Source of the DNA: Sphaerodactylus townsendi
Lineage: Eukaryota
DNA: 64,000 nt
Direction of reading: 5' to 3'
Assembly (NCBI RefSeq): GCF_021028975.2
Contig: NC_059434.1
Coordinates: 54,436,001-54,500,000 of the forward strand
A program made the translations under genes and the position numbers. How positions within the stretch are numbered: position 1 is the stretch's first letter; each line of letters starts with the position of its first letter. The notes under the pieces were generated by a model. That model saw nothing but the letters and a program-made list of their open reading frames with translations, was not told the origin of the DNA and did not search any database. Shown here piece after piece: positions 8,469-60,851 of the stretch.

Positions 8469-8660
8469 TGACCATAAAGAAGAAGAAAAACACTTTCTAG
8501 ACACAGTGCATAACAGACTTCTCTCTGTGATACACCTTTGAAGATGCCAGCCTCAGATGCAGGCAAAAAGTTAGCAACAAGATCTTCCAGACCATGGCCA
8601 CACAGCCCGGAAAACCCACAACAACCAGTTGAATCTGGCCTTGAAAGCCTTCGACAGTAC
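8469..8660 (+). mobile_element. Penelope-like element terminal repeat (pseudo-LTR) with decayed hammerhead motif
   Basis: gaagatgccagcctcagatgcaggc...cagcccggaaaacccacaacaacc...gaaagccttcgaca; homologous to 38379-38546 and 42957-43090. Confidence 0.75.
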
Positions 8661-11778: not shown

Positions 11779-11981
11779 NNNNNNNNNNNNNNNNNNNNNN
11801 NNNNNNNNNNNNNNNNNNNNNNNNNNNNNNNNNNNNNNNNNNNNNNNNNNNNNNNNNNNNNNNNNNNNNNNNNNNNNNNNNNNNNNNNNNNNNNNNNNNN
11901 NNNNNNNNNNNNNNNNNNNNNNNNNNNNNNNNNNNNNNNNNNNNNNNNNNNNNNNNNNNNNNNNNNNNNNNNNNNNNNNNN
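11779..11981. other. Assembly gap (others at 14018-14261, 53702-53892, 58077-58218)
   Basis: Runs of N. Confidence 1.
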
Positions 11982-11992
11982 TTGTGAACTTA

Positions 11993-13118
11993 GTAGTCCA
12001 TGGGGTGGTAGCGGGTGTAGGGCGAGATGGACATCAAGGCATGCCCGATGCTCTCGATCCGCCGGGGGGGCGATGTCAGTGGAGCCCGCTGTCACGAGTA
12101 GAGGACTCCATCGCCTTGGCAATCTGCTTTCGTCAAAGTACTTCCGGCGGTATGGTTCGCGGCCGGACGATCACCAGGAGCAGCTTAAGGTCCCACATCT
12201 TGTCGGCGATGGCCTTGATCCGCTCGGGGCTGTACAGGCTGGTCCCGGCAATGAAGTTCCCGGGTTCCACGATGCAAACCTTCACGTCGTGGGGGTGCAT
12301 CTCATAGCGCAGGCAGTCAGAAAACGCCTCCACCCCAAACTTGGTGATGCAGTAGGGGGAGCGCGCGGGGTTGGCCATCTGCCCCATCATGCTGCTGATG
12401 TTCACCGCGCGGCCTTTGGCTCTGCGGATGAGAGGCAAGAAGGCCTTGGTGGTCTGGATCGTCCCCCACAGGTTCACTTCGGCCACCTCCTTGTAGGTGT
12501 CCATGCTGGTGAATTCCACCTCTCCGAAGGTGGAGATGCCGGCATTGTTGACCAGACCCCAGACCCCAGTGTCCGGATTCTTCAGGGTGGCAGTCACGTG
12601 ATCGGCGGCCCAGCGCCCGCGTCACTGCGCTGTCACAGAGCGTTCCAGCTGTACACCGTCCTCATGCGATTAGCTGTTCACCATGCTGTCGAGATCTTTG
12701 CGCCCGCGGCCGCCCGATCCTTCATCAGGCAGCCGGTAAATGTAAACAATAGAGAGCCCTTCTCATGCAAATTACTTGGCCCAGAGGCTGAAACCAAAGC
12801 CCGAGTCGCAGCCCGTGATGAGGACCGGTCGCTCGCCGATCGCGTCCACGTCTGTCACATATGTCCGCCGGCCCGTTTGGGTCAAGACCGAGAAGGAAAC
12901 CTCCGGCAGGGCCCCGAGTCTGGTTGCAGCATCCTTGCAGTGCGGGGCTTTGGTGGCCAGGCGGGCCAGAGGCCGGGAGAGGAGCTGCGTGGCAGCCAGC
13001 AGGGTAGCCATGGGTGGGTGCAGTCCGAGGCGTCCTCTCCTCCCTCGGGGGGGGGCGACAGCAGCAGCAGCAGCTCCGGTGACCGGCAGGCCCTCCCCTC
13101 CCTCCCTCTCTCCCCAGG
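11993..13118 (-). pseudogene. BDH1: Processed (intronless) retrocopy of D-beta-hydroxybutyrate dehydrogenase, mitochondrial (BDH1); 5' UTR retained, 3'-truncated, frameshifted
   Basis: ATG at 13011. Minus-strand frames give MATLLAATQLLSRPLARL...GRRTY...VLITGCDSGFGFSL, then [36 protein letters not shown]...[21 protein letters not shown]...[18 protein letters not shown], then YTRYHPMDY. All match vertebrate BDH1 (SDR TGxxxGxG, NNAG and YxxxK motifs). No introns; stop/frameshifts near 12775 and 12190; direct repeat TTGTGAACTTA at 11982-11992 and 13119-13129. Confidence 0.95.
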
Positions 13119-15082
13119 TTGTGAACTTATTTTTAAGGAATCTCCACCAGCTGCTAAGAGTGTAACAGCACACAACTATTTTAAGTAGCAATGGGGAGAA
13201 ATAGCAGCTTAGCAATGCGCGAGGCAGGCTGGTGTAGGGATCTTTTAAAAAGACTATGTATACCAGAAATGGCTTGAAACGTATTTGCAGAGAATTCACA
13301 AAAGACCAAATTGCAGTTTTAAATATTTTTTATATAGAATTTTTTGGTTGCAAACAATCACACACAGTAAGAAGTCAAGGGCACATATACACACAGTTCG
13401 GGGAACAAGTGAGTTTTAAAGTTTTCATTTTCTAAATTCTCTGGAATTTACCATGCTGGAGCTTGCTGGGCTGAACTAATTAGCTTAGCTCTTCCTATTG
13501 TTCCTAAGTACCCAGGACAATGGGTGTCAATTGCTCTTAAGATTAAAATCAAGGAAGCACAAGTGAATGGCTTTTATGCAGAAGTAACTCTGTAGAAACA
13601 CCTTGCCCAGGATATTCAGATTTGGCTGGAGACATTTTAGATCGGGGATAAGGTGAGTGGTTTAGGAGAGTCATAACAAAGGTGGAGGCAGGCAGAAGCA
13701 ACCCTTTTGTTGCTGGCCCTGGTTTTCCAGAAGAGAGATAGGGAAATGCAGTATCTGATGCTAAGAAGTGGCTTTTCCATATTCTTCGATCTTAACGAGA
13801 ACTATCTTTGCAAAGGTGTGGTAATCAAGCATGCCCACTCCAACAAAATGAGACCTCCAAGGTTATGCAGGAGTAACTCATCCCTCTTGATTAGATTTTG
13901 TAAAGCAGACCTGTCACCTTTGGACATGCTGCTACCTGCATAGAGAAGTGTATGACAACTGGCTTCTGCCAATATGATTTTTGAAGAAAATTTTATGGCA
14001 ATAATAATATGGGGGGTNNNNNNNNNNNNNNNNNNNNNNNNNNNNNNNNNNNNNNNNNNNNNNNNNNNNNNNNNNNNNNNNNNNNNNNNNNNNNNNNNNN
14101 NNNNNNNNNNNNNNNNNNNNNNNNNNNNNNNNNNNNNNNNNNNNNNNNNNNNNNNNNNNNNNNNNNNNNNNNNNNNNNNNNNNNNNNNNNNNNNNNNNNN
14201 NNNNNNNNNNNNNNNNNNNNNNNNNNNNNNNNNNNNNNNNNNNNNNNNNNNNNNNNNNNNNGAAAGAAGAATCATCAGAGCATAGATGATGAATTTCAAT
14301 AGCTGCCCAAGTTTCAACATGTGGATAGGCATAATAAAATAGGCTTATCCAAGTGATGGAGTACAACAGTTAAGGAAATCTTTAAGGCAGGGAAAACAAC
14401 TTTCGCAGGCATCCATAAATTAATCACAGTAGGAATATCATATCTCTGCTGCTGAGCACAGGGAAGTGGATTTAGTGCTGGAAGGTTTCAGTAGGCAGTG
14501 ATGGAACGGTGGTTGCTGAGAGACCAGCAGTATCTGGCATGGATGCAGGTGATGACATTGTCCTGTAATCATCAGCCATCTGCTTGCATTTCATCTGCAG
14601 GAGCAGTAACCCACCACTCTAACTCCCTGTGAACCATCACTGGAAACCTCCCATCAACAGAATTAGCTATTTACAGAATTTTAAACCAGCAGTCTTCCAA
14701 CATCTTGATTTTTAAAAATGTATCCAAAGGGAAATGGGTGATATCTTTTCCTTTAAATAATTCTTTTTTCCCCACAGCTACAACAAATGAATTCAATGAT
14801 GCAGACCCAGTTATTCAAGTCAAGCCCTTTTTTTCTCAAGCAGATGACTCTAAGGCAAACAGTTGTTAATTGAAAAGATGGCGCTTTGAATACCTAGCCA
14901 CTGATACATTTGAATCCTATCATTTGGGATCTTATCATAGCCTTTAAAACAATTTGGGCTGGAGATTAAAATTCCCACTATGGGTAGGCCTTAAATAATA
15001 CGTGTCACTGACAAAACAGTCCAGCTGCTGCGAAATAAGGGAAGACCCAGCTAGTCCCGTCTCATATCACATTACTATAGAA

Positions 15083-15230
15083 CAGGGGTAGGGAACCTGC
15101 GGCTCTCCAGATGTTCAGGAACTACAATTCCCATCCGCCCCTTTCAGCATGGCCAATTGGCCATGCTGAAAGGGGCTGATGGGAATTGTAGTTCCTGAAC
15201 ATCTGGAGAGCCACAGGTTCCCTACCCCTG
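15083..15230. mobile_element. hAT-type fold-back MITE
   Basis: Almost perfect 148-bp palindrome CAGGGGTAGGGAACCTG...CAGGTTCCCTACCCCTG centred on GGCCAATTGGCC; exact 8-bp TSD CTATAGAA (15075-15082 and 15231-15238). Confidence 0.92.
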
Positions 15231-15549: not shown

Positions 15550-16497
15550 TGTGAAAACCTGTTTGCTTCCCAGTCTAAGCCTATACTGAAAGAGGGAACT
15601 TTGAATCTTTTGTAGGGTGTGGAGAAATGGCTCCTTCCCCTCCTCCCCCCTTCTCCAATCAGGTATCATAGATTTGGAGGACTTAAAAATTCCAGAGGAA
15701 CATCAGGAAGAGTTACCTGACCTAGGGGGGAAAGATATATTGACCAAGCCTGACCAGGTCAAAAGAGGGTTGGGTCTGGGAACTGATAAATCTCTGGAAG
15801 GAGAGAAGTGAGAGTTGTTCTCTTTCTCTTTTTGCTGGGTCACTGAAGGGAGCAGATCTCTTGCTGAGGCTGTAAAGGGAGCAGCCATTTTTGAACCATG
15901 AGCTCATCCAGGGATCTCACTCAGCCTGCAGGTAATGAGAACTCTTTGAGAATTGCAACCTTTTAAGCTTTAAGGACCTACGGTCTTTTCAACAACTTCT
16001 AGGGTATGTTTAGGGAGAGGGATAGAGGATTTGCATTTATATCTCCTTTGTTTTGGAAAACCTTGCTCAATCTCATATAGTGCTAAAATATACTTGTAAC
16101 CATTTTATTTTTTAATAAATACTGTTAAACCTTAGATGTGGAGAACAGTTTTCTGTACCAAGAATGCTCCACCATCTTGGATGCACTGTGGCGAACCTTT
16201 GGCACTCCAGATGTTATGGACTACAATTCCCATCAGCCCCTGCCTGCATGGCCAATTGTCCATGCTGGCAGGGGCTGATGGGAATTGCAGTCCATAACAT
16301 CTGGAGTGCCAAAGGTTCGCCACCACGGCACTATCAAAATAGGAGGGGGGAGGAAGGATAGCAGCTGGTGAGCAGCTTTTCCTCCGGGACCTCCAATCTG
16401 CCCTGTGGAACCCAGGAGAGGAGAACCAAGGGAAACTGAGGCTAGACCCTGGGAGAGGAATAGGGCCTGTCAGGCAAAGCAAGCCTGTTCTGCCACA
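15550..16497 (+). mobile_element. Probable solo LTR hosting the MITE at 16184
   Basis: TG...CA ends, AATAAA at about 16114, LTR-like composition; TSD not found. Confidence 0.35.
16184..16328. mobile_element. hAT-type fold-back MITE, related subfamily
   Basis: Palindrome gtggcgaacctttggcactccagatgttatggactacaattcccatcagcccc...; same core as 15083-15230 but different termini. Confidence 0.8.
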
Positions 16498-27509: not shown

Positions 27510-27594
27510 CACTAAGGCTCCTAACACCTCTTTCTAGACTAGGGCATACTGTGCATGCCTTGTTTACCCTGTGGCAGTTTGTTCTGCAGTGGCA

Positions 27595-27727
27595 GGCAGA
27601 TTCCGCATGGGCCCAAAACAGCGGTGTTAAAACTGTGTACATTGTTTTAAACCATTTACTTTTACATTGTTTTAAACCATTTCACACTGTTTTCACACCA
27701 CTGTTTTTGGCCCATGCAGAATCGGCA
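27595..27727. mobile_element. Short Harbinger-type fold-back MITE
   Basis: GGCAGATTCCGCATGGGCC ... GGCCCATGCAGAATCGGC; same family as 35442-35581. Confidence 0.8.
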
Positions 27728-32401: not shown

Positions 32402-32800
32402 TTCAGAAGTCCCAGAGTAGTTTTACGCGTTCATTTTCAGTGACCTTTTCAGGTTTGTGATTCCACCAGTTCTTTGTCACAGGCAGATAACAACAACAAC
32501 AACAAGTAAAGAACCAACACTGATGTAAGTCAATAGCAGAAAACTGCTCAAAGTTCAAAAGACAAAGAGTGAATACCATAATAATACAGTGCAAAGCAGA
32601 AGAAAAAACTGGCAAAAGAAGGTTCTGCATGGACAGTTCCTGGAAAAAACTGAGGGCAAAACTGACAAGGAAAAAACCTGGTTGTGGCTCACAATTGGAA
32701 CTTTGAAAAAGGAGACTGAGAGCTTGATTCTTGCAGCCCAAGAACAAGCAATTTGAACAAATGTCATCAAAGCCAGAATTGAAAAGTCAACTACAGATCT
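32402..32800. mobile_element. R4/Dong-clade non-LTR retrotransposon fragment with internal inversion
   Basis: Minus 32402-32489 encodes YLPVTKNWWNHKPEKVTENERVKLLWDF; plus 32505-32800 encodes KNWQKKVLHGQFLEK...TWLWLTIGTLKKETESLILAAQEQAI*TNVIKARIEKSTTD; (CAA)5 at the junction. Confidence 0.75.
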
Positions 32801-33588: not shown

Positions 33589-34440
33589 GTAAAAGGAAAC
33601 ATATACGTGTGTGGGAGGGGAGGAAGCAGGTGATTTTATGAGGTTGAATTGAATTTTTTATTATGTGACTGATGATATTTACTGAATTGAATCTATTTTT
33701 TCTTTAACTTTTGTGACTTGGATGATATTTGTTCTCAAAGCCACTGCTCTGCAGCTAAGAGTGAGGTAAAAGGAAAAAGCATCACTCAGCAGTACGTGAA
33801 GAAGGGCAGAAGTCAAGAGATTTAGAAATAAATCCCCAATGGCAGCCAATTAGTCATTACATTTACTAGCCCCCACACCTGTTGTTAAGTGAGTGTTTTT
33901 GCTCTCACCCTCCCTAAGGGCCCAGTAGAACTTTATGAAATACAGTGACAAAGAGAACTATGACACAGCTCTAGTTACAAAATATGCCTTTGATGGCAGT
34001 TAATCAAAGGATGCCATGAGCTCAACAATACCGTCAATAAATACAGTGGGGCTGAACCTCTACAGCTATTGTTTCAGCTATAAATCTTAGAAATGCTTTT
34101 TCTAGCAACAGCAGTGCTTATAAATTTAGAGTGCACTCTCAGAAACATACAAAGGACAGGATATACTTCATGATTCCTTTACAGGGATCACCACAAGCAT
34201 TTACTCGAGCTTTTTGTTACACAAATACTTTATTTATGGAAATGATATCTATTTCTCTTGTACGTACATACATACATACATATGCACACATCCACAATTG
34301 AGTAGAAAGTGAAATGCATTAAGGGATTGTCTTCTGCCATGAATATAAGAAGATAATCCCATCAGTGATCCATGTAGTTCAGCATGCTATTTCACACAGC
34401 AGCCAACCAGTAGCCCTGAAGGGCCAACAAACCAGATACA

Positions 34441-34580
34441 GCCCCCTTCCGCACATGCAGAATAATGCACTTTCAATGCACTTTGCAGCTGGATTTTACT
34501 GTGTGGAGTAGCAAAATCCACTTGCAAACAATTGTGAAAGTAGATTGAAAGTGCATTATTCTGAATGTGCGGAACGGGCC
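34441..34580. mobile_element. Short Harbinger-type fold-back MITE
   Basis: GCCCCCTTCCGCACATGCAGAATAATGCACTTTCAAT ... ATTGAAAGTGCATTATTCTGAATGTGCGGAACGGGCC; exact TSD ACA; same family as 58756-58896. Confidence 0.88.
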
Positions 34581-35441
34581 ACAGAGGTCAATGGTGCCCC
34601 CTATCTCGGTTTTGAAAAGTTTACTGCCACAGATATGGGGGTTTACTAACCATGGCTAGTAGTCATTGATGGATCTGCCCTCTATGAATCTTCTTAACAC
34701 GGGAGCAGCTGCAACACGGGATTTTGCAAAAGGATTGCTAGTTTAGCAATTTTTAAAAAAATCCTGGGTTGAGGGAAATAAAATAAGGCAGACTCATTTT
34801 GGGTGAGTGACCCATGCAAAGTTACCCCCCCCCCAAAAAAAAACAGTTTTCATTGCATCCTACACATGTTATTTTTGTCCTGTGCAGAATCTATCATAGA
34901 AAGGGAGGGTTTTTTTTAAAAAAAAAATTCTTCTTTTAATATTGTACCAGGACACATGGTGACTGCATTCAACTGACTGGCAAAAGAAACCACTTTTTCA
35001 TATCATGAATACTTACAATATAGAACTGATTGCCACAAACATAGTGGTGGCATCCAACTTTTTTAAAAAAAATCCTAAATAAGTTCATGGAGTTTATTCA
35101 TGGCTATAAGCAATAATGGCTAGATGGAACATCTAGTATTCAATTTACTGTTGAATACATGATTCAGGTAGGCTACAACAGGGATTGAGACCTTTGTACA
35201 CTGGTCAGAAGTTACCTGGAAGCCACTAGTTTACTTTGGTCAGTTTCAGCAGTATTTTTCATATATTATGTATTCTTCTATTAAAGTTTTACTTGTTATT
35301 ATAGGCACAGAGTGGCAACTTATGTCTTGAAAATAGCTCTGTATTAATTTTATCATTATCTGTAGTTGTCCATCTTATTAACATGCCAATGTATGAAAAG
35401 AGTTCACTATAAATCCACTTCATGCCTCTAGCAAAATCTGT

Positions 35442-35581
35442 GGCTGATTCCGCATGGGCCAAAAACAGCATTGTGAAAACGGTGAGAAAGCAGTATAAAC
35501 CCTTTTACACTGTTTCAAACCCTTTTACACCATTTTCACACCGTTTTCTCACTGTTGTTTTTGGTCCATGCAGAATCAGCC
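35442..35581. mobile_element. Short Harbinger-type fold-back MITE
   Basis: GGCTGATTCCGCATGGGCC ... GGTCCATGCAGAATCAGCC; exact TSD TGT. Confidence 0.9.
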
Positions 35582-35614
35582 TGTGAATGTCCACAAAGGC
35601 TCATCCCACAATAT

Positions 35615-42956: not shown

Positions 42957-43134
42957 GTATTGTCGAAGGCTTTCACGACCGGAATCACTGGGGTGCTGTG
43001 CGGTTTCCGGGCTGTATGGCCGTGTTCTAGCAGCATTCTCTCCTGACGTTTCGCCTGCATCTGTGGCTGGCATCTTCAGAGGATCTGATAGGATCTGAAC
43101 CTATCAGATCCTCTGAAGATGCCAGCCACAGATG
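42957..43134 (-). mobile_element. Penelope-like terminal repeat with inverted partial duplication
   Basis: gtattgtcgaaggctttcacgaccggaatcactgggg...cctgacgtttcgcctgcatctgtggctggcatcttcagagg; perfect 35-bp inverted arms 43058-43092 / 43100-43134. Confidence 0.85.
43041..43083 (-). ncRNA. Minimal type I hammerhead ribozyme
   Basis: Minus strand: UCCU-CUGAAGA-U-GCC(agccacagaugca)GGC-GAAA-C-GUC-AGGA. Core CUGANGA and GAAA present; stem I UCCU/AGGA; stem II GCC/GGC; GUC cleavage triplet; minimal palindromic stem III (ACGU). Confidence 0.75.
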
Positions 43135-47849: not shown

Positions 47850-48843
47850 CTGGAGAGAAGTAACTACTGGGGGTGCTGCAGGGTTCTGTCTTGGGGCCAC
47901 TACTATTTAATATTTTTATCAATGACTTGGCTCATAGAACAGAGGGAATGCTAATCAAATTTGCTGATGACACAAAATTAGGCAGAGTGAATTATTATCC
48001 CAGAGATCAGGGTCAGAATTCAAAATGACCTGAACAGATTAGAGAGCTGAGCCAAAACTAACAAAATGAACATCAACAGAGAGAAATATAAGATACTACA
48101 CTCAGGAAGAAAAAAGGAAACCAACATATAAAAGTTGTCACTCATTTTATATCTGTGCATTGGTTTGACAACAGTATACGTGAAAGGGATCTGGAAGTTT
48201 TAGTAAACCACAAACTGAATATGAGTCAGCAGTGTGATATGGCAGCCAAGAAAATAAATGCAATTCTGGGCTGCATGAATAGGAGTATAGTGTCTAGATC
48301 AAGGGAAGTAATAGAACCACTCTGTTCTGCATTAAGTTGAACCTCACCTGGAGTCTTAGTGTACACAGTTCTGGGCACCGCAATTCAAGAAGAAAGGATA
48401 TTAACCCAAATAGGAGCGAGGTCAAGAGGAGAACTAGGACATGGAAAAGGTTTGGAATCCATACCCTACGAGAAAACACCTAGGGAGCTGGGTATGTTTA
48501 GTTTGGTGAAGAGAAGGTTAAGACATTACATGATATCCATCATTAGATATTTGAAGGGATGTCATGTTGGTGAGGCAGCAAGCTTGTTTTATGCTGCTCT
48601 AGAGGCTAGGACCAGGAATAGTGTGTTTAAGGTGAAGGAAAGGAGATTCTACCTGAACATTGGGAAGAACTTCTTGAGAGTAAATATTGTTCGACAGTGG
48701 AATACAATATGGTGAAATATCCTTCTTTGAAGGTTTTTAAACAGTGGATAACCATCTGTCAGGAGGCCTTTGATTGTATATTCCTGTATGGCAGGGGTTG
48801 GACTTGATGGCCCTTGTGGTCTCTTCCAATTCTGTGATTCTAT
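47850..48843 (+). mobile_element. CR1 LINE, 5'-truncated 3' end (degenerate RT)
   Basis: [25 protein letters not shown]...IKFADDTKL...ERDLEVLVNHKLNMSQQCDMAAKKINAILGC; ends cttccaattctgtgattctat (CR1 3' octamer repeat). Confidence 0.93.
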
Positions 48844-53963: not shown

Positions 53964-54304
53964 CAGAGGCGTAGCTAGATCAGAGTGCGCCTGGTGCACA
54001 CTGGCTTTTGCGCTCCCCGCAGCGCCCCCCATGCCCCCCGCGGCCCCCTTACATTTCTCAGGAGCTCCTGGGAAATGTAGTTCCCACCAGGCCCAGGCAA
54101 CGCAGGCATGCTTCTGCCCTGCTCCATTCCTAAAAGTAAGTGGGGGGGTGCGCCGCAGGGGGACGCAGTGGGGGGGCCTGTGGGGGGCACCATGGGGGTG
54201 CAGAGGGGAGGGGGAGGGGGATTTTTCTGCCCCCACGTGACTAGAAATGGTGCGCCCGGTGAGTTGCGCAGCCCCCTCTCTGCCCCCTGGTGGCTTTGCC
54301 ACTG
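53964..54304. mobile_element. GC-rich hAT-type MITE
   Basis: TIR CAGAGGCGTAGC ... GCTTTGCCACTG; 8-bp flanks AAAGCAGA/ACAGCAGA. Confidence 0.75.
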
Positions 54305-54930
54305 ACAGCAGATTGGAGAAATACTGAAGAAAAGCTGAGGGAACCTAGGAGGTTCACAAATGCACCATACAGCTGTGAAGATGAAGGGGGAGTGTCTTCC
54401 AAGAACAGTGAGCTTGAGACTCATAACCTCTGTAGAAATGTCATTCTAAGATTTGCAAAGGAAAAGGTTTTAAGAATACATATGAATGATCTGGGGAATC
54501 TGTTTTTATTGTTTCCCATGGTCAGGGCCGGATGGGAACACAACCAGTTCCACCAGTTAGCCCAGAATATGAGCAGGGCTTTCAATGTGTCTGAGTGCTG
54601 GTTGTGTGCCCACGGACCGGCAGCAGGGAAGAGGGGTTGGCCTATACTACCATCAGCTGCTCCTACATTGGAGGCATGGAATGACACATATTGCACAGGA
54701 ACCACGGGGATAATCAAACAGGACAAGGGAAGAAATTGCCTGATCTGTTCATCCCTCAGAAAAAGCAGAAGGGAGGGGTAACACCACCACCCACTTTTTC
54801 AGTACCAGATAAGTCAAAAAGATATGAATTGGGGGATTATCCCTCATGTGAAAGAACCTCGGTTCTTTTCCGGCTGGGCCGGGTGTGTCAGGATAATCCT
54901 TGGCTTAAGCAGGACCCTGAATTTCTGTCT
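54305..54930 (+). mobile_element. Endogenous retrovirus fragment: integrase C-terminus plus env SU N-terminus (gamma-type env)
   Basis: DWRNTEEKLRE and HTAVKMKG resemble the IN C-terminal region. Then MNDLGNLFLLFPMVRAG (signal-like) WEHNQFHQLAQNMSRAFNVSECWLCAHGP...GWPILP with a CWLC (CxxC) motif and N-glycosylation sequons. Continues after a frameshift as ELGDYPSCER. Confidence 0.7.
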
Positions 54931-58755: not shown

Positions 58756-58896
58756 GGCTCCTTCTGCACGTGCAGAATAATGCACTTTCAAACTGCTTTC
58801 AGTGCTCTTTGAAGCTGCGTGGAATAGCAAAATCCACTTGCAAACAGTTGTGAAAGTGGTTTGAAAATGCATTATTCTGCGTGTGCGGAAGGGGCC
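58756..58896. mobile_element. Short Harbinger-type fold-back MITE
   Basis: GGCTCCTTCTGCACGTGCAGAATAATGCA ... TGCATTATTCTGCGTGTGCGGAAGGGGCC. Confidence 0.85.
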
Positions 58897-59004
58897 TAAG
58901 AGAGAAAAGGAACAGCTGAACCAGCAGCCTAGTGAAGCAGCCAGCAGCATATATGTCCAGACCAGTTTTCCTGCATGGTCTTTACTCATTCTTACAAACC
59001 TTTA

Positions 59005-60230
59005 AAATTGTATCTTAATGGCAAATTGGTTGTACAAATTAGATCTTTCAAATACCTTGGGCTTAATTTTATTTATTTATTTATTTATTTTAGATTTTTA
59101 GATTTATTAGCCGCCCTCCCCCGAAGGGCTCAGGGCGGCATACAACAATAAAAGCATAGTAACAGTTAATATAACATTAAAACCAACAACAGCACATTCT
59201 AGTAAAGTAATATCTCGGGGAAAATTTTAAAAAATAAAACTCAGATGGCGATACAACACTCCCTTTCCATCCACCCTCCCACCCCCCGTCATCATTGTGC
59301 TAAATTGGTAACTCATAGAGAAAAAGCAGTAAAAAGCAGCTATCTGAAATCAGCAGTGGTTTTGACATTTTTCTTCTCAAAGGGTCATACAAATATTCCA
59401 GCCGTGCTAAACGTCTTCAGCATGACATGGTTCAGCCACTTCTATATGGTGTGCCTTTATGGCTTGGACATTGGAATAAGGTAGTCGAAAGAGTTCAGAA
59501 AAGTTTTTTATATAAGATCTTTGGGGTACCGCACTGTGTGCCCTTTGCCGTACTCTTTCTAGAAGCTGGTGTGAGTTTTTTTTAGAAACCAGAGCATGGC
59601 TTATTACTTTCAAATTCTGACTTAGGCTCTGTTTCAGCACCAACAAGAACACTTTAATGTTCTCTGTGTTACCGGAACTATTGTCTTCTGAATGGTGGCA
59701 ACTTGTCAACCCAAAAGTCCAATTGTTGGCCTGTTCCTTGAAGCCTTATATATGCTGTCATCTAATTAGATATTCCGCATCCTAAAAACAAGGCTTCTAG
59801 ATCAGGAATTTCAATTATTATTATCACCAGCCATAAAGTCATGTTCCCCATTATATCATAATATCCCTCTTATCCACAGGCATACAGCTAAGTATCTTGA
59901 TCTTCTAACAGTGCCCAGACAGAGATGGATCCTAACTAGGACAAGGTTTAATGTCTCCCCATCAGCCATCACCCTTAAGTCAATTCCATTCCAGGACAGA
60001 GTCTGTGATTCTTGCCCAAATCAGCTGGAATCAATCAGCCATACTTCATTTGATTGTCCGAAGTACACAAAATCGAGAAGCTCCTTGCTTTGTAGTGTAT
60101 CCAATGACAAATCCAGAGTCATAGTGACATCTAAATTGGGTTTTTCCTCAATAGTAGTGATGCTGATATTCTTGAAGGAGTTGCAAAGTTTCTTTTATAG
60201 GTATCTGCACTTCATTTATAAGAGATATAA
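59005..60230 (+). mobile_element. Degenerate non-LTR retrotransposon 3' half (RTEX-like), interrupted at about 59065-59295 by a reverse LINE/SINE tail
   Basis: LYLNGKLVVQIRSFKYLGLNF (RT thumb FKYLG), LYGVPLW, ETRAWLITFKF*LRL, RVCDSCPNQLESISHTSFDCPKY (CCHC knuckle). Confidence 0.65.
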
Positions 60231-60851
60231 CTTTGGGTCTTTTAATATATATATTTATACTTTTAATATTATAAATTCATGTTTTTACATAAACACACAC
60301 AAATTTAACTAATTAATCTATTACGTTTCTCCTTTGCTTCTGCAGCAGCTGCCTCTGCTTCAGCCTTCTGGGCACAGCTGGCTCATTGCTGGGTTCCCTA
60401 GGAGGATCTGCAGGCTCATCCACCTGCATGTCATCTTGCAGGGAAGGGCTGGGGGTTGAGTCTGCTGCCTGGTCTTCCTCAGGAGAAGTCAGCTCTGGCT
60501 GCACTGTGTTGCGAGGTTCTGCCTAAGAATCCTCTGTAATTTGCTAAGTACCCAGGAACTGGCTCATGACTGGCACAAAGCTGTTTAACATGGAATTTGA
60601 TTAAATCTTTGATCAAAAATTCTAGGTAATTTGTTTCAGGGCCCAACTTGCATATAAAAATAAGTGTTTATTATTGGTCTATGACTTTAAATCAATCAAA
60701 CAAATCAAATCAAACCATTTGAATTCTAGTGAATTCGAATATTAATATTTTGACATACTCAGTATCTATGGAAATTAAATAGTTTTGTTTACTGACCACA
60801 TACCTGCACATTGAGAAGTTCTGATGGTTTTGAATGAGAAAACTCTTATGG

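What the first reader, a model, noticed from the sequence alone, without database searches (positions are those of the whole stretch)
11982..13129. Tailless BDH1 retrocopy: full 5' end, 3' end truncated inside the CDS, no poly(A), clean TSD
Seen: TTGTGAACTTA flanks both ends (the left copy is cut by the gap, so the TSD is at least 11 bp). The insert keeps about 107 nt of GC-rich 5' UTR but ends at ...YHPMDY, about 20 codons short of the BDH1 C-terminus, with no 3' UTR or A-tail. The target's first bases (TA on the sense strand) match the next expected mRNA codon (TAY) and create an in-frame TAA. Known: typical L1 retrocopies are 5'-truncated with an A-tail; tailless copies arise by internal microhomology priming. 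Inference: an mRNA was internally primed by a LINE RT at a non-canonical nick (AAAAA|TAAG), possibly by a non-L1 LINE of this lineage.
Basis: partly seen in the sequence, partly recalled or inferred. Interest (0 to 1): 0.7.

Follow-up and report, generated by a model that had tools for sequence, protein, structure and literature searches.

The report
Tailless BDH1 retrocopy inside lizard LTR
A lizard genome carries a spliced DNA copy of the ketone-body enzyme gene BDH1 that stops 23 codons early, has no poly(A) tail and sits between two 15-base repeats inside an older LTR; it was likely pasted by a LINE-1-type enzyme that started copying inside the mRNA, a known route of which this genome holds many other examples, and its many small insertions are likely assembly errors.

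Summary
Window 11993-13114 (minus strand) is a processed BDH1 copy: seven parental exons joined, 103-nt 5' UTR, ending 23 codons before the stop, with no 3' UTR or tail. The TSD is 15 bp, not 11, and the flanking N run is not an assembly gap. The copy interrupts a solo LTR. All 29 sister LTRs fetched show the empty site with one copy of the 15-mer, so no target DNA was lost. Overlap with the mRNA is 2 nt. It is not special here: 24 of 40 U2 5'-end copies and 2 of 6 other mRNA copies are tailless with TSDs. This genome's young L1s make 13-19 bp TSDs at relaxed sites, so a non-L1 enzyme is not needed; Penelope (11-14 bp) remains possible. The copy's three insertion-rich patches continue into the flanking LTR and are missing from short-read contigs, so they are likely long-read errors. 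No contig bridging the 3' junction was seen. Tailless retrocopies are a published class, already reported in the green anole, and this scan has noted them on other DNA (78 notes). Verdict: new member of a known kind.

The parts
11993..13114 (-). Processed BDH1 copy, 1122 bp, 62.7% GC; exon junctions near 13047, 12914, 12841, 12720, 12567 and 12414
   Evidence: protein identity
13012..13114 (-). 5' UTR, 103 nt (parental non-coding exon 1 spliced to exon 2); ATG at 13011
11978..11992 (.). Left copy of the 15-bp TSD (3' junction); 11991-11992 is the 2-nt overlap with the mRNA; 11992-11990 reads TAA in the parental frame
13115..13129 (.). Right copy of the 15-bp TSD (5' junction), CAGGTTGTGAACTTA
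13130..13136 (-). TT|AAAAA, a canonical L1-type nick site 5 nt outside the TSD, present once only
11962..14033 (.). Host solo LTR (sisters TGTTA...TAACA, about 1.1-1.25 kb, 4-bp TSD in many), interrupted at its nt 17-31, with an internal deletion of about 250-330 bp relative to sisters; flanked on both sides by GGAA-type microsatellite; orientation not determined
12612..12793 (-). Two insertion-rich patches (exons 4 and 5), likely unpolished long-read errors
12055..12200 (-). Third insertion-rich patch (last exon), likely unpolished long-read errors
13195..13395 (+). Stretch of the host LTR with the same insertion excess (median 10 insertions and 1 deletion against sisters; sister against sister 0 and 0)

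Best explanation
This is a single, spliced, tailless BDH1 retrocopy with a 15-bp target duplication inside a solo LTR, likely made when a LINE-1-type enzyme nicked the LTR and primed reverse transcription inside the mRNA's last exon on a 1-2 base match. Steps: (1) shown: the source was spliced mRNA of the C8 gene; (2) shown: the LTR site was duplicated over 15 bp with no loss; (3) inferred: first-strand nick on the window's plus strand at or next to the TpA step, with the freed 3' end (...CTT or ...CTTA) pairing at the Tyr codon 23 codons before the stop; a nick at the canonical site 5 nt away, followed by trimming of the unpaired T5 end, gives the same product (about 25% of this explanation); (4) inferred: copying ran to the mRNA's 5' end, and the second strand was nicked 14-15 nt away; (5) inferred: the copy is likely a dead pseudogene; its frameshifting insertions are likely assembly errors, and the TAA at the junction is likely chance.
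For: Introns absent at six junctions. Empty site with one 15-mer in 29 of 29 sister LTRs, a few with single substitutions. Young L1s with intact ORF2 are present: 14 of 17 fetched gave tail-adjacent TSDs of 13-19 bp (median 17.5), 4 starting with T, and only 4 matching TT|AAAA at 5 of 6 positions. Tailless class in the same genome: all 40 U2 5'-end loci stop at U2 nt 26-41, and 24 of 40 have 10-17 bp TSDs, 6 starting TA; their TSD starts are weakly L1-like (z 3.5). FTH1 copies L176 (16-bp TSD, 4-nt overlap, no tail) and L179 (cut inside the CDS, 11-bp TSD) are tailless; L177 and L167 are tailed, so a poly(A)-using enzyme also copies mRNAs here. Short-read contigs of X1, X3 and X4 carry copy-specific alleles across exon junctions with 0 differences, and the X3 contig of the last exon ends exactly at 11991, where copy and parent part. 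Published models: PMC5322556, PMC4476161.
Against: The site itself scores poorly on the L1 matrix at the TSD start (-2.7) and only 0.7 one base in, against 1.6-8.2 for the 14 L1s that built the matrix; a score of 0.7 or more turns up in 23% of random three-position windows. Tailless U2 TSDs are shorter than L1 TSDs (median 13 against 17.5, P 1.7e-5) and equal Penelope's (11-14 bp in 8 hand-picked stubs). The priming site is not A-rich, unlike the human consensus TT/WAAAAWW (PMC5322556). A 2-nt overlap is close to chance. No contig bridging either junction was seen. Trimming as a general rule failed in the U2 set (p 0.15).
Confidence: 0.62

Rival explanations
1. Same anatomy, different enzyme: a Penelope/Poseidon element or a non-L1 LINE (RTE/Bov-B, or the 1141-aa family seen in L163-L165) copied the mRNA in trans.
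For: Penelope stubs here have 11-14 bp TSDs with A at -2 in 8 of 8 (hand-picked from 20 rows). The BDH1 site has A at -2 and an ATT across the nick, the motif that anole PAc cuts in vitro; PAc also starts inside its RNA without homology (PMC11167929). Two 1141-aa LINE copies have 13- and 19-bp repeats, one starting TA. TA at the TSD start with TT 10-11 nt upstream loosely recalls the Bov-B Tn-TA signature (PMC13295347).
Against: PAc needed the first 172 nt of its own ORF as template in vitro (PMC11167929). U2 tailless sites have A at -2 in only 8 of 24. Tn-TA needs three T; here there are two, and only 1 of 24 U2 sites has TTT there. No Bov-B or Sauria-type tail was found in the fetched DNA (not a genome-wide test). 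15 bp is above the Penelope lengths seen.
Confidence: 0.2
2. An ordinary tailed L1 retrocopy (nick at TT|AAAAA, 20-bp TSD) later lost its last 23 codons, 3' UTR, tail and the five A's in one deletion that used the TA overlap.
For: A canonical site (score 5.3) lies exactly 5 nt outside the TSD; chance of such a site within 8 nt is about 4%.
Against: It needs a deletion ending exactly at the end of the A run in a young insertion. 20 bp is above all 14 L1 TSDs measured. Primary tailless copies are common here. The X3 contig ends at the same point.
Confidence: 0.08
3. The true copy has an open frame: a retrogene for a 325-aa BDH1 lacking the last 23 residues, stopped by the TSD-made TAA, possibly driven by a TATA-like motif in the LTR about 200 nt upstream, and under purifying selection.
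For: The frameshifts are likely errors. In clean segments there are 9 synonymous and 3 non-synonymous differences (pN/pS 0.11; P 0.015-0.04 against a neutral copy at equal rates). TATATAA lies at that distance in 28 of 29 sisters.
Against: All three amino-acid changes hit conserved residues (R 98 of 104, V 83 of 89, R 84 of 84), and two are CpG transitions. Outgroup-like contigs put some synonymous changes on the parent's branch. If parental synonymous sites run three times faster, the excess vanishes (P 0.17-0.29). The missing tail has a fixed length in 100 of 105 homologues; its role in lipid activation is recalled, not checked. No RNA evidence.
Confidence: 0.06
4. The LTR element captured the mRNA by template switching during its own reverse transcription.
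For: The copy is flanked by LTR sequence on both sides and is 3'-truncated and tailless, like the cases in PMC5131818. Copy and host are of similar age (about 2.5% from the parent; host 2.3% from sisters).
Against: In those cases the mRNA replaces internal sequence, TSDs are absent and microsimilarity has a median of 6 bp. Here a continuous LTR is interrupted with a 15-bp duplication, the overlap is 2 nt at one end only, and only one BDH1 copy was found.
Confidence: 0.03
5. The whole insertion is an assembly artefact.
For: The region is visibly error-rich.
Against: Spliced, copy-specific alleles appear in contigs of X1, X3 and X4, which also hold intron-containing parental pieces. The TSD is exact.
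Confidence: 0.01

Closest known systems
Tailless retropseudogenes (Noll et al. 2015, PMC5322556; methods, first results sections, section 19 and passages read)
   Same: 5'-near-complete, 3'-truncated, no A-tail, TSD within 8-35 nt, overlap between target and RNA at the 3' end; the paper reports 5S/U2 tailless forms in the green anole as the only non-mammal.
   Different: The source is a spliced, normally polyadenylated protein-coding mRNA of 1.1 kb cut inside the CDS. The priming site is not A-rich, and the site does not fit the human consensus TT/WAAAAWW. The paper's supplements were not opened and may list mRNA cases.
3'-truncated snRNA pseudogenes (Doucet et al. 2015, PMC4476161; section 8 and passages read)
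   Same: Short 3' overlap; the paper notes that a T before the purine run is absorbed into the TSD and shifts the apparent nick, as with T|AAG here. Its Table 2 gives 25 3'-truncated and 0 poly(A) U6 copies in Anolis.
   Different: snRNA rather than mRNA; human sites resemble TTTT/A more closely.
LTR-mediated retroposition (Tan et al. 2016, PMC5131818; passages read)
   Same: LTR sequence on both sides, 3' truncation, no tail.
   Different: Here there is a 15-bp TSD and an interrupted, not replaced, host; the paper itself separates such cases.
Poseidon/PAc internal initiation (Frangieh et al. 2024, PMC11167929; parts 1-2 of 4 read)
   Same: Internal start of reverse transcription without homology; cuts at ATT.
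   Different: Shown only on the element's own RNA; copies here are fold-back stubs.

Membership tests
Processed pseudogene (retrocopy) | Parental introns precisely absent | tested here: met
   six junctions; spliced contigs
Processed pseudogene (retrocopy) | Dispersed from an intron-containing parent | tested here: met
   copy on C10, parent on C8
Tailless retropseudogene (Noll 2015) | 3'-truncated by at least 10 nt, no A-tail | tested here: met
   23 codons and the 3' UTR missing
Tailless retropseudogene (Noll 2015) | TSD of 8-35 nt | tested here: met
   15 bp, empty site in 29 of 29 sisters
Tailless retropseudogene (Noll 2015) | 5' end complete within 5 nt | tested here: inconclusive
   exon 1 present and spliced; start site unknown, no RNA holder listed
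Tailless retropseudogene (Noll 2015) | Complementarity of target and RNA at the 3' end | tested here: met
   2 nt only; near chance on its own
Tailless retropseudogene (Noll 2015) | Made by L1 machinery | tested here: inconclusive
   TSD length in this genome's L1 range, site score marginal, Penelope not excluded
Canonical tailed L1 retrocopy | Poly(A) tail at the 3' junction | tested here: not met
LTR-mediated retrocopy (Tan 2016) | mRNA replaces part of the element, no TSD | tested here: not met
   continuous host with a 15-bp duplication
LTR-mediated retrocopy (Tan 2016) | Microsimilarity at both switch points | tested here: not met
   2 nt at the 3' end, none evident at the 5' end
RTE/Bov-B Tn-TA insertion signature | TTT about 10 nt upstream of a TSD starting at TA | tested here: inconclusive
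   TA present, TT (not TTT) at -11/-10; no Bov-B reference set from this genome
Functional retrogene | Open frame, transcription, purifying selection | tested here: inconclusive
   assembled frame broken, likely by errors; pN/pS 0.11 but explainable otherwise; expression not testable

The most novel reading that the evidence does not exclude
In this lizard lineage, priming inside the RNA is a main route of retrocopying, not a rare side product: ordinary polyadenylated mRNAs are often copied from their 5' end to an internal point without using the tail (3 of the 5 mRNA copies that could be classed, counting this one), at relaxed sites and with TSDs about 4 nt shorter than those of L1's own copies. 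That points to a lizard L1, or a Penelope enzyme acting in trans, that does not need poly(A).
Probability: 0.3. Interest if true: 0.55.

Novelty: new member of a known kind. Interest (0 to 1): 0.28.

Why it matters
By itself the locus is a clean textbook case, unusually well controlled because many sister LTRs preserve the empty site. Its use is as a pointer. Human L1 relies on poly(A) for copying other RNAs (established knowledge, recalled), and reptile retrocopies have been little examined: searches for 'retrocopies'+'squamate'+'target site duplication' (1 paper), 'retrocopies'+'gecko' (6, none on this topic by title or start of abstract) and 'tailless'+'mRNA retrocopies'+'reptile' (0) found no survey in the held library. 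If tailless mRNA copies are as frequent as this small sample suggests, lizard genomes offer a direct test of how a non-mammalian reverse transcriptase chooses and primes its template. The locus also warns that apparent frameshifts and divergence in this assembly can be sequencing errors.

Tried and rejected
Error-prone copying (for example by a repair polymerase) as the source of the insertion patches: rejected. The flanking LTR, which was not copied with the mRNA, shows the same excess, another young retrocopy does not (L176: 1 insertion, 1 deletion), and a copy-type X4 contig lacks the 10 extra bases of exon 4. A twin-primed inversion in organism B: the opposite-strand joint 12461/12840 in X4 joins two GATC sites, as proximity-ligation libraries do, so it was set aside. 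Primer trimming as the general cause of short tailless TSDs: not supported in 24 U2 copies (p 0.15; A-richness upstream only p 0.03). LTR orientation and class: 42 pattern hits for a primer-binding site; six followed up were all solo LTRs, so the class (Gypsy or ERV) is open. Dating copy against host: both about 1% per branch, so order comes from structure, not from the clock. Window palindromes were checked as Penelope stubs and look like MITEs instead. Rfam found nothing in the window. Family searches for EF-Tu D3 and cyclophilin gave no usable retrocopy. No RNA holder listed. The protein Atlas did not hold the sequence. Schmitz 2004 was not held. A literature search on the BDH1 C-terminus gave only a listing, not read.

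Full report
What is there. The window is G000:C10:54436001-54500000. Its minus strand carries a BDH1-like sequence from 13114 to 11993. A DNA search of G000 found the copy itself, seven exon matches of one gene on C8, and a 72% identical paralogue beside that gene. All six introns are absent from the copy, and the parental borders are GT-AG. A 142-aa clean stretch hits D-beta-hydroxybutyrate dehydrogenase: 482 proteins at E <= 1e-30, best 96%, lizard proteins on top. The copy keeps 103 nt of 5' UTR (parent 114, the difference lying in a GCC/GCT repeat) and ends after YHPMDY; 23 residues follow that motif in 100 of 105 homologues.

Junctions and target. The 11-mer occurs only at 11982 and 13119 in the window. 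In G000 the left copy continues, giving an exact 15-bp repeat that cannot be extended. The N run hides no BDH1 sequence, only the end of the host repeat and a purine-rich microsatellite. Laying short-read contigs showed that the right flank is a very high-copy repeat. A search with it gave 2331 candidates, 40 scored, and 29 sister loci. All 29 carry the uninterrupted site with one copy of the 15-mer followed by the T run, a few with single substitutions. The sisters begin TGTTA, end TAACA, run about 1.1-1.25 kb, and many have 4-bp TSDs: a solo LTR. The host spans about 11962-14033. So the mRNA copy went into an existing LTR at its nt 17-31, duplicating 15 bp and deleting nothing. At the 3' end two bases (TA) are shared with the mRNA. 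At the 5' end the copy starts within exon 1 with no clear extra bases.

Independent support. In one search (four runs, contigs only; X1 and X3 are one sample), X1 has contigs at 12350-12511 and 12790-12952, X3 at 12790-12952 and X4 at 12457-12604. All cross exon junctions with 0 differences from the copy, and the same runs hold intron-containing parental pieces. The X3 contig of the last exon aligns over its whole 282 nt and stops at 11991, the exact point where copy and parent diverge. No listed contig bridges either junction, so this is indirect support.

The odd divergence. Against the parent, three patches (302 bp) hold 29 insertions (47 nt) and 3 deletions. The other 691 bp compared hold 17 substitutions, 1 insertion and no deletion (comparison ended at 12054). 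The adjacent LTR shows the same bias: median 10 insertions and 1 deletion against 29 sisters, while 162 sister pairs give 0 and 0 with equal substitution counts. In one search, an X4 contig with the copy's allele at 12826 is 10 nt shorter over 12715-12840, matching the 10 extra bases of exon 4. One contig at about double depth covers 12772 in X1 (42 against about 20) and X3 (211 against 101-111). The patches are therefore likely uncorrected long-read errors. A 191-bp stretch identical to the parent (12189-12380), where X4's copy-type contig has 3 differences, suggests polishing by parental reads as well (inference).

Is it unusual in this genome? No. A 25-base U2 start matched 108 places. I fetched 40 loci covering 41 of the 49 exact matches (8 left out: known or likely full genes, one already seen, and small contigs). 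All 40 stop at U2 nt 26-41. 24 of 40 have a TSD of 10-17 bp, median 13; 13 start TG or TA, and 2 fit TT|AAAA. Five protein-family searches gave 9 candidates, 6 of them processed copies. L176 (FTH1, 16-bp TSD, 4-nt overlap, ends just before AATAAA) and L179 (FTH1, cut inside the CDS, 11-bp TSD with one mismatch) are tailless. L177 and L167 end in A runs. L178 and L206 could not be classed. The sample is small and hand-curated.

Which enzyme? Of 20 long RT frames fetched, 17 are L1-like (one has Transposase_22 upstream; most pairs are 35-59% identical) and 3 belong to another family. Fourteen L1s gave a TSD next to the 3' end (dropped: one tandem, one ambiguous, one without): 13-19 bp, median 17.5, motif roughly TY|AAAAT, 4 starting with T. 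On a matrix from these sites the BDH1 target scores -2.7 at the TSD start, 0.7 one base in (T|AAG, allowed by the overlap) and 5.3 five bases out (TT|AAAAA). Chance levels are 23% and 4%. L1 is therefore adequate but not proven. U2 TSD starts are weakly L1-like (z 3.5), but their lengths are shorter than L1's (P 1.7e-5). Earlier scan notes pointed to Penelope stubs with 12-15 bp TSDs. In my loci, 8 clear stubs of 20 rows have 11-14 bp repeats and A at -2 in all 8, which the U2 set lacks (8 of 24) but the BDH1 site has. PAc cuts ATT and starts internally, but needed its own RNA in vitro (PMC11167929, parts 1-2 read). The Bov-B Tn-TA signature (PMC13295347, parts 1-3 of 7 read) is only loosely met.

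Function. In clean coding segments there are 9 synonymous and 3 non-synonymous differences. The three changes hit conserved residues, and contigs of X6 place some synonymous changes on the parent's branch. I read this as a young neutral copy beside a GC-rich parent, and leave 6% for a truncated retrogene.

Known and new. The anatomy meets the definition of a tailless retropseudogene (PMC5322556), which reports such forms in the green anole. PMC4476161 lists 25 3'-truncated and no poly(A) U6 copies in Anolis, and PMC2912911 (passages read) extends the class to many non-coding RNAs. It fails the defining tests of LTR-mediated capture (PMC5131818). The scan holds 78 notes with 'tailless retrocopy' in at least 25 genomes, including a lizard mRNA case, all unchecked by me. 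Supplements of these papers were not opened and may list mRNA-derived lizard cases. Verdict: real, a new member of a known kind, interest 0.28. What is worth following is the frequency and enzyme of tailless mRNA copying in lizards.

Noticed in passing
window 12055-13395: Insertion-biased errors run through both the retrocopy and the LTR; other findings in this window that rest on small indels or frameshifts need read support.
   Followed up: yes
L082, L084, L087, L089, L091, L093, L103, L106 (U2 copies): Many tailless U2 copies carry one or more extra GT units at the 3' junction, as if the enzyme slipped and recopied just after priming.
   Followed up: no
L146-L162: At least a dozen divergent L1 lineages with intact ORF2, target motif roughly TY|AAAAT and 13-19 bp TSDs; L152 ends without an A-tail at a TSD starting TA; L150 is a tandem with an 840-bp repeat.
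   Followed up: partly
L176 and L179: Two tailless FTH1 retrocopies; L177 and L179 start within one base of each other, just downstream of a TATA-like box of the parent, so 5'-complete copying occurs here.
   Followed up: partly
G000:C8:111739841-111745014 (L009, L012): A second BDH1-like gene, 67-75% identical in exons, lies head to head with the parent.
   Followed up: no
X6 record 25 (window 12790-12870): Organism D has an 81-nt contig piece across the exon 3/4 junction, though its other contigs hold introns: possibly the same or another BDH1 retrocopy.
   Followed up: no
L163-L165: A young 1141-aa LINE family (97-99% identical copies) with a long ORF1 and a 3' end ...AATAAAGGCTTGT; clade not determined; window 59770-60312 looks like a relative (weak zf-RVT hit).
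   Followed up: partly
window 15087-15226, 16193-16324, 34440-34586, 58756-58902, 27593-27726, 35442-35583: Short palindromic repeats of three families, MITE-like; the first has an 8-bp flanking repeat (hAT-like; name recalled).
   Followed up: partly
window 42957-43134: Fold-back Penelope-type stub with hammerhead core; fragments also at 8539 and 38454.
   Followed up: partly
window 48341-48715, 32403-32786, 54263-54781: ORF remnants that look by eye like CR1, R4-type LINE and retroviral env pieces (names recalled; Pfam gave no hit).
   Followed up: no
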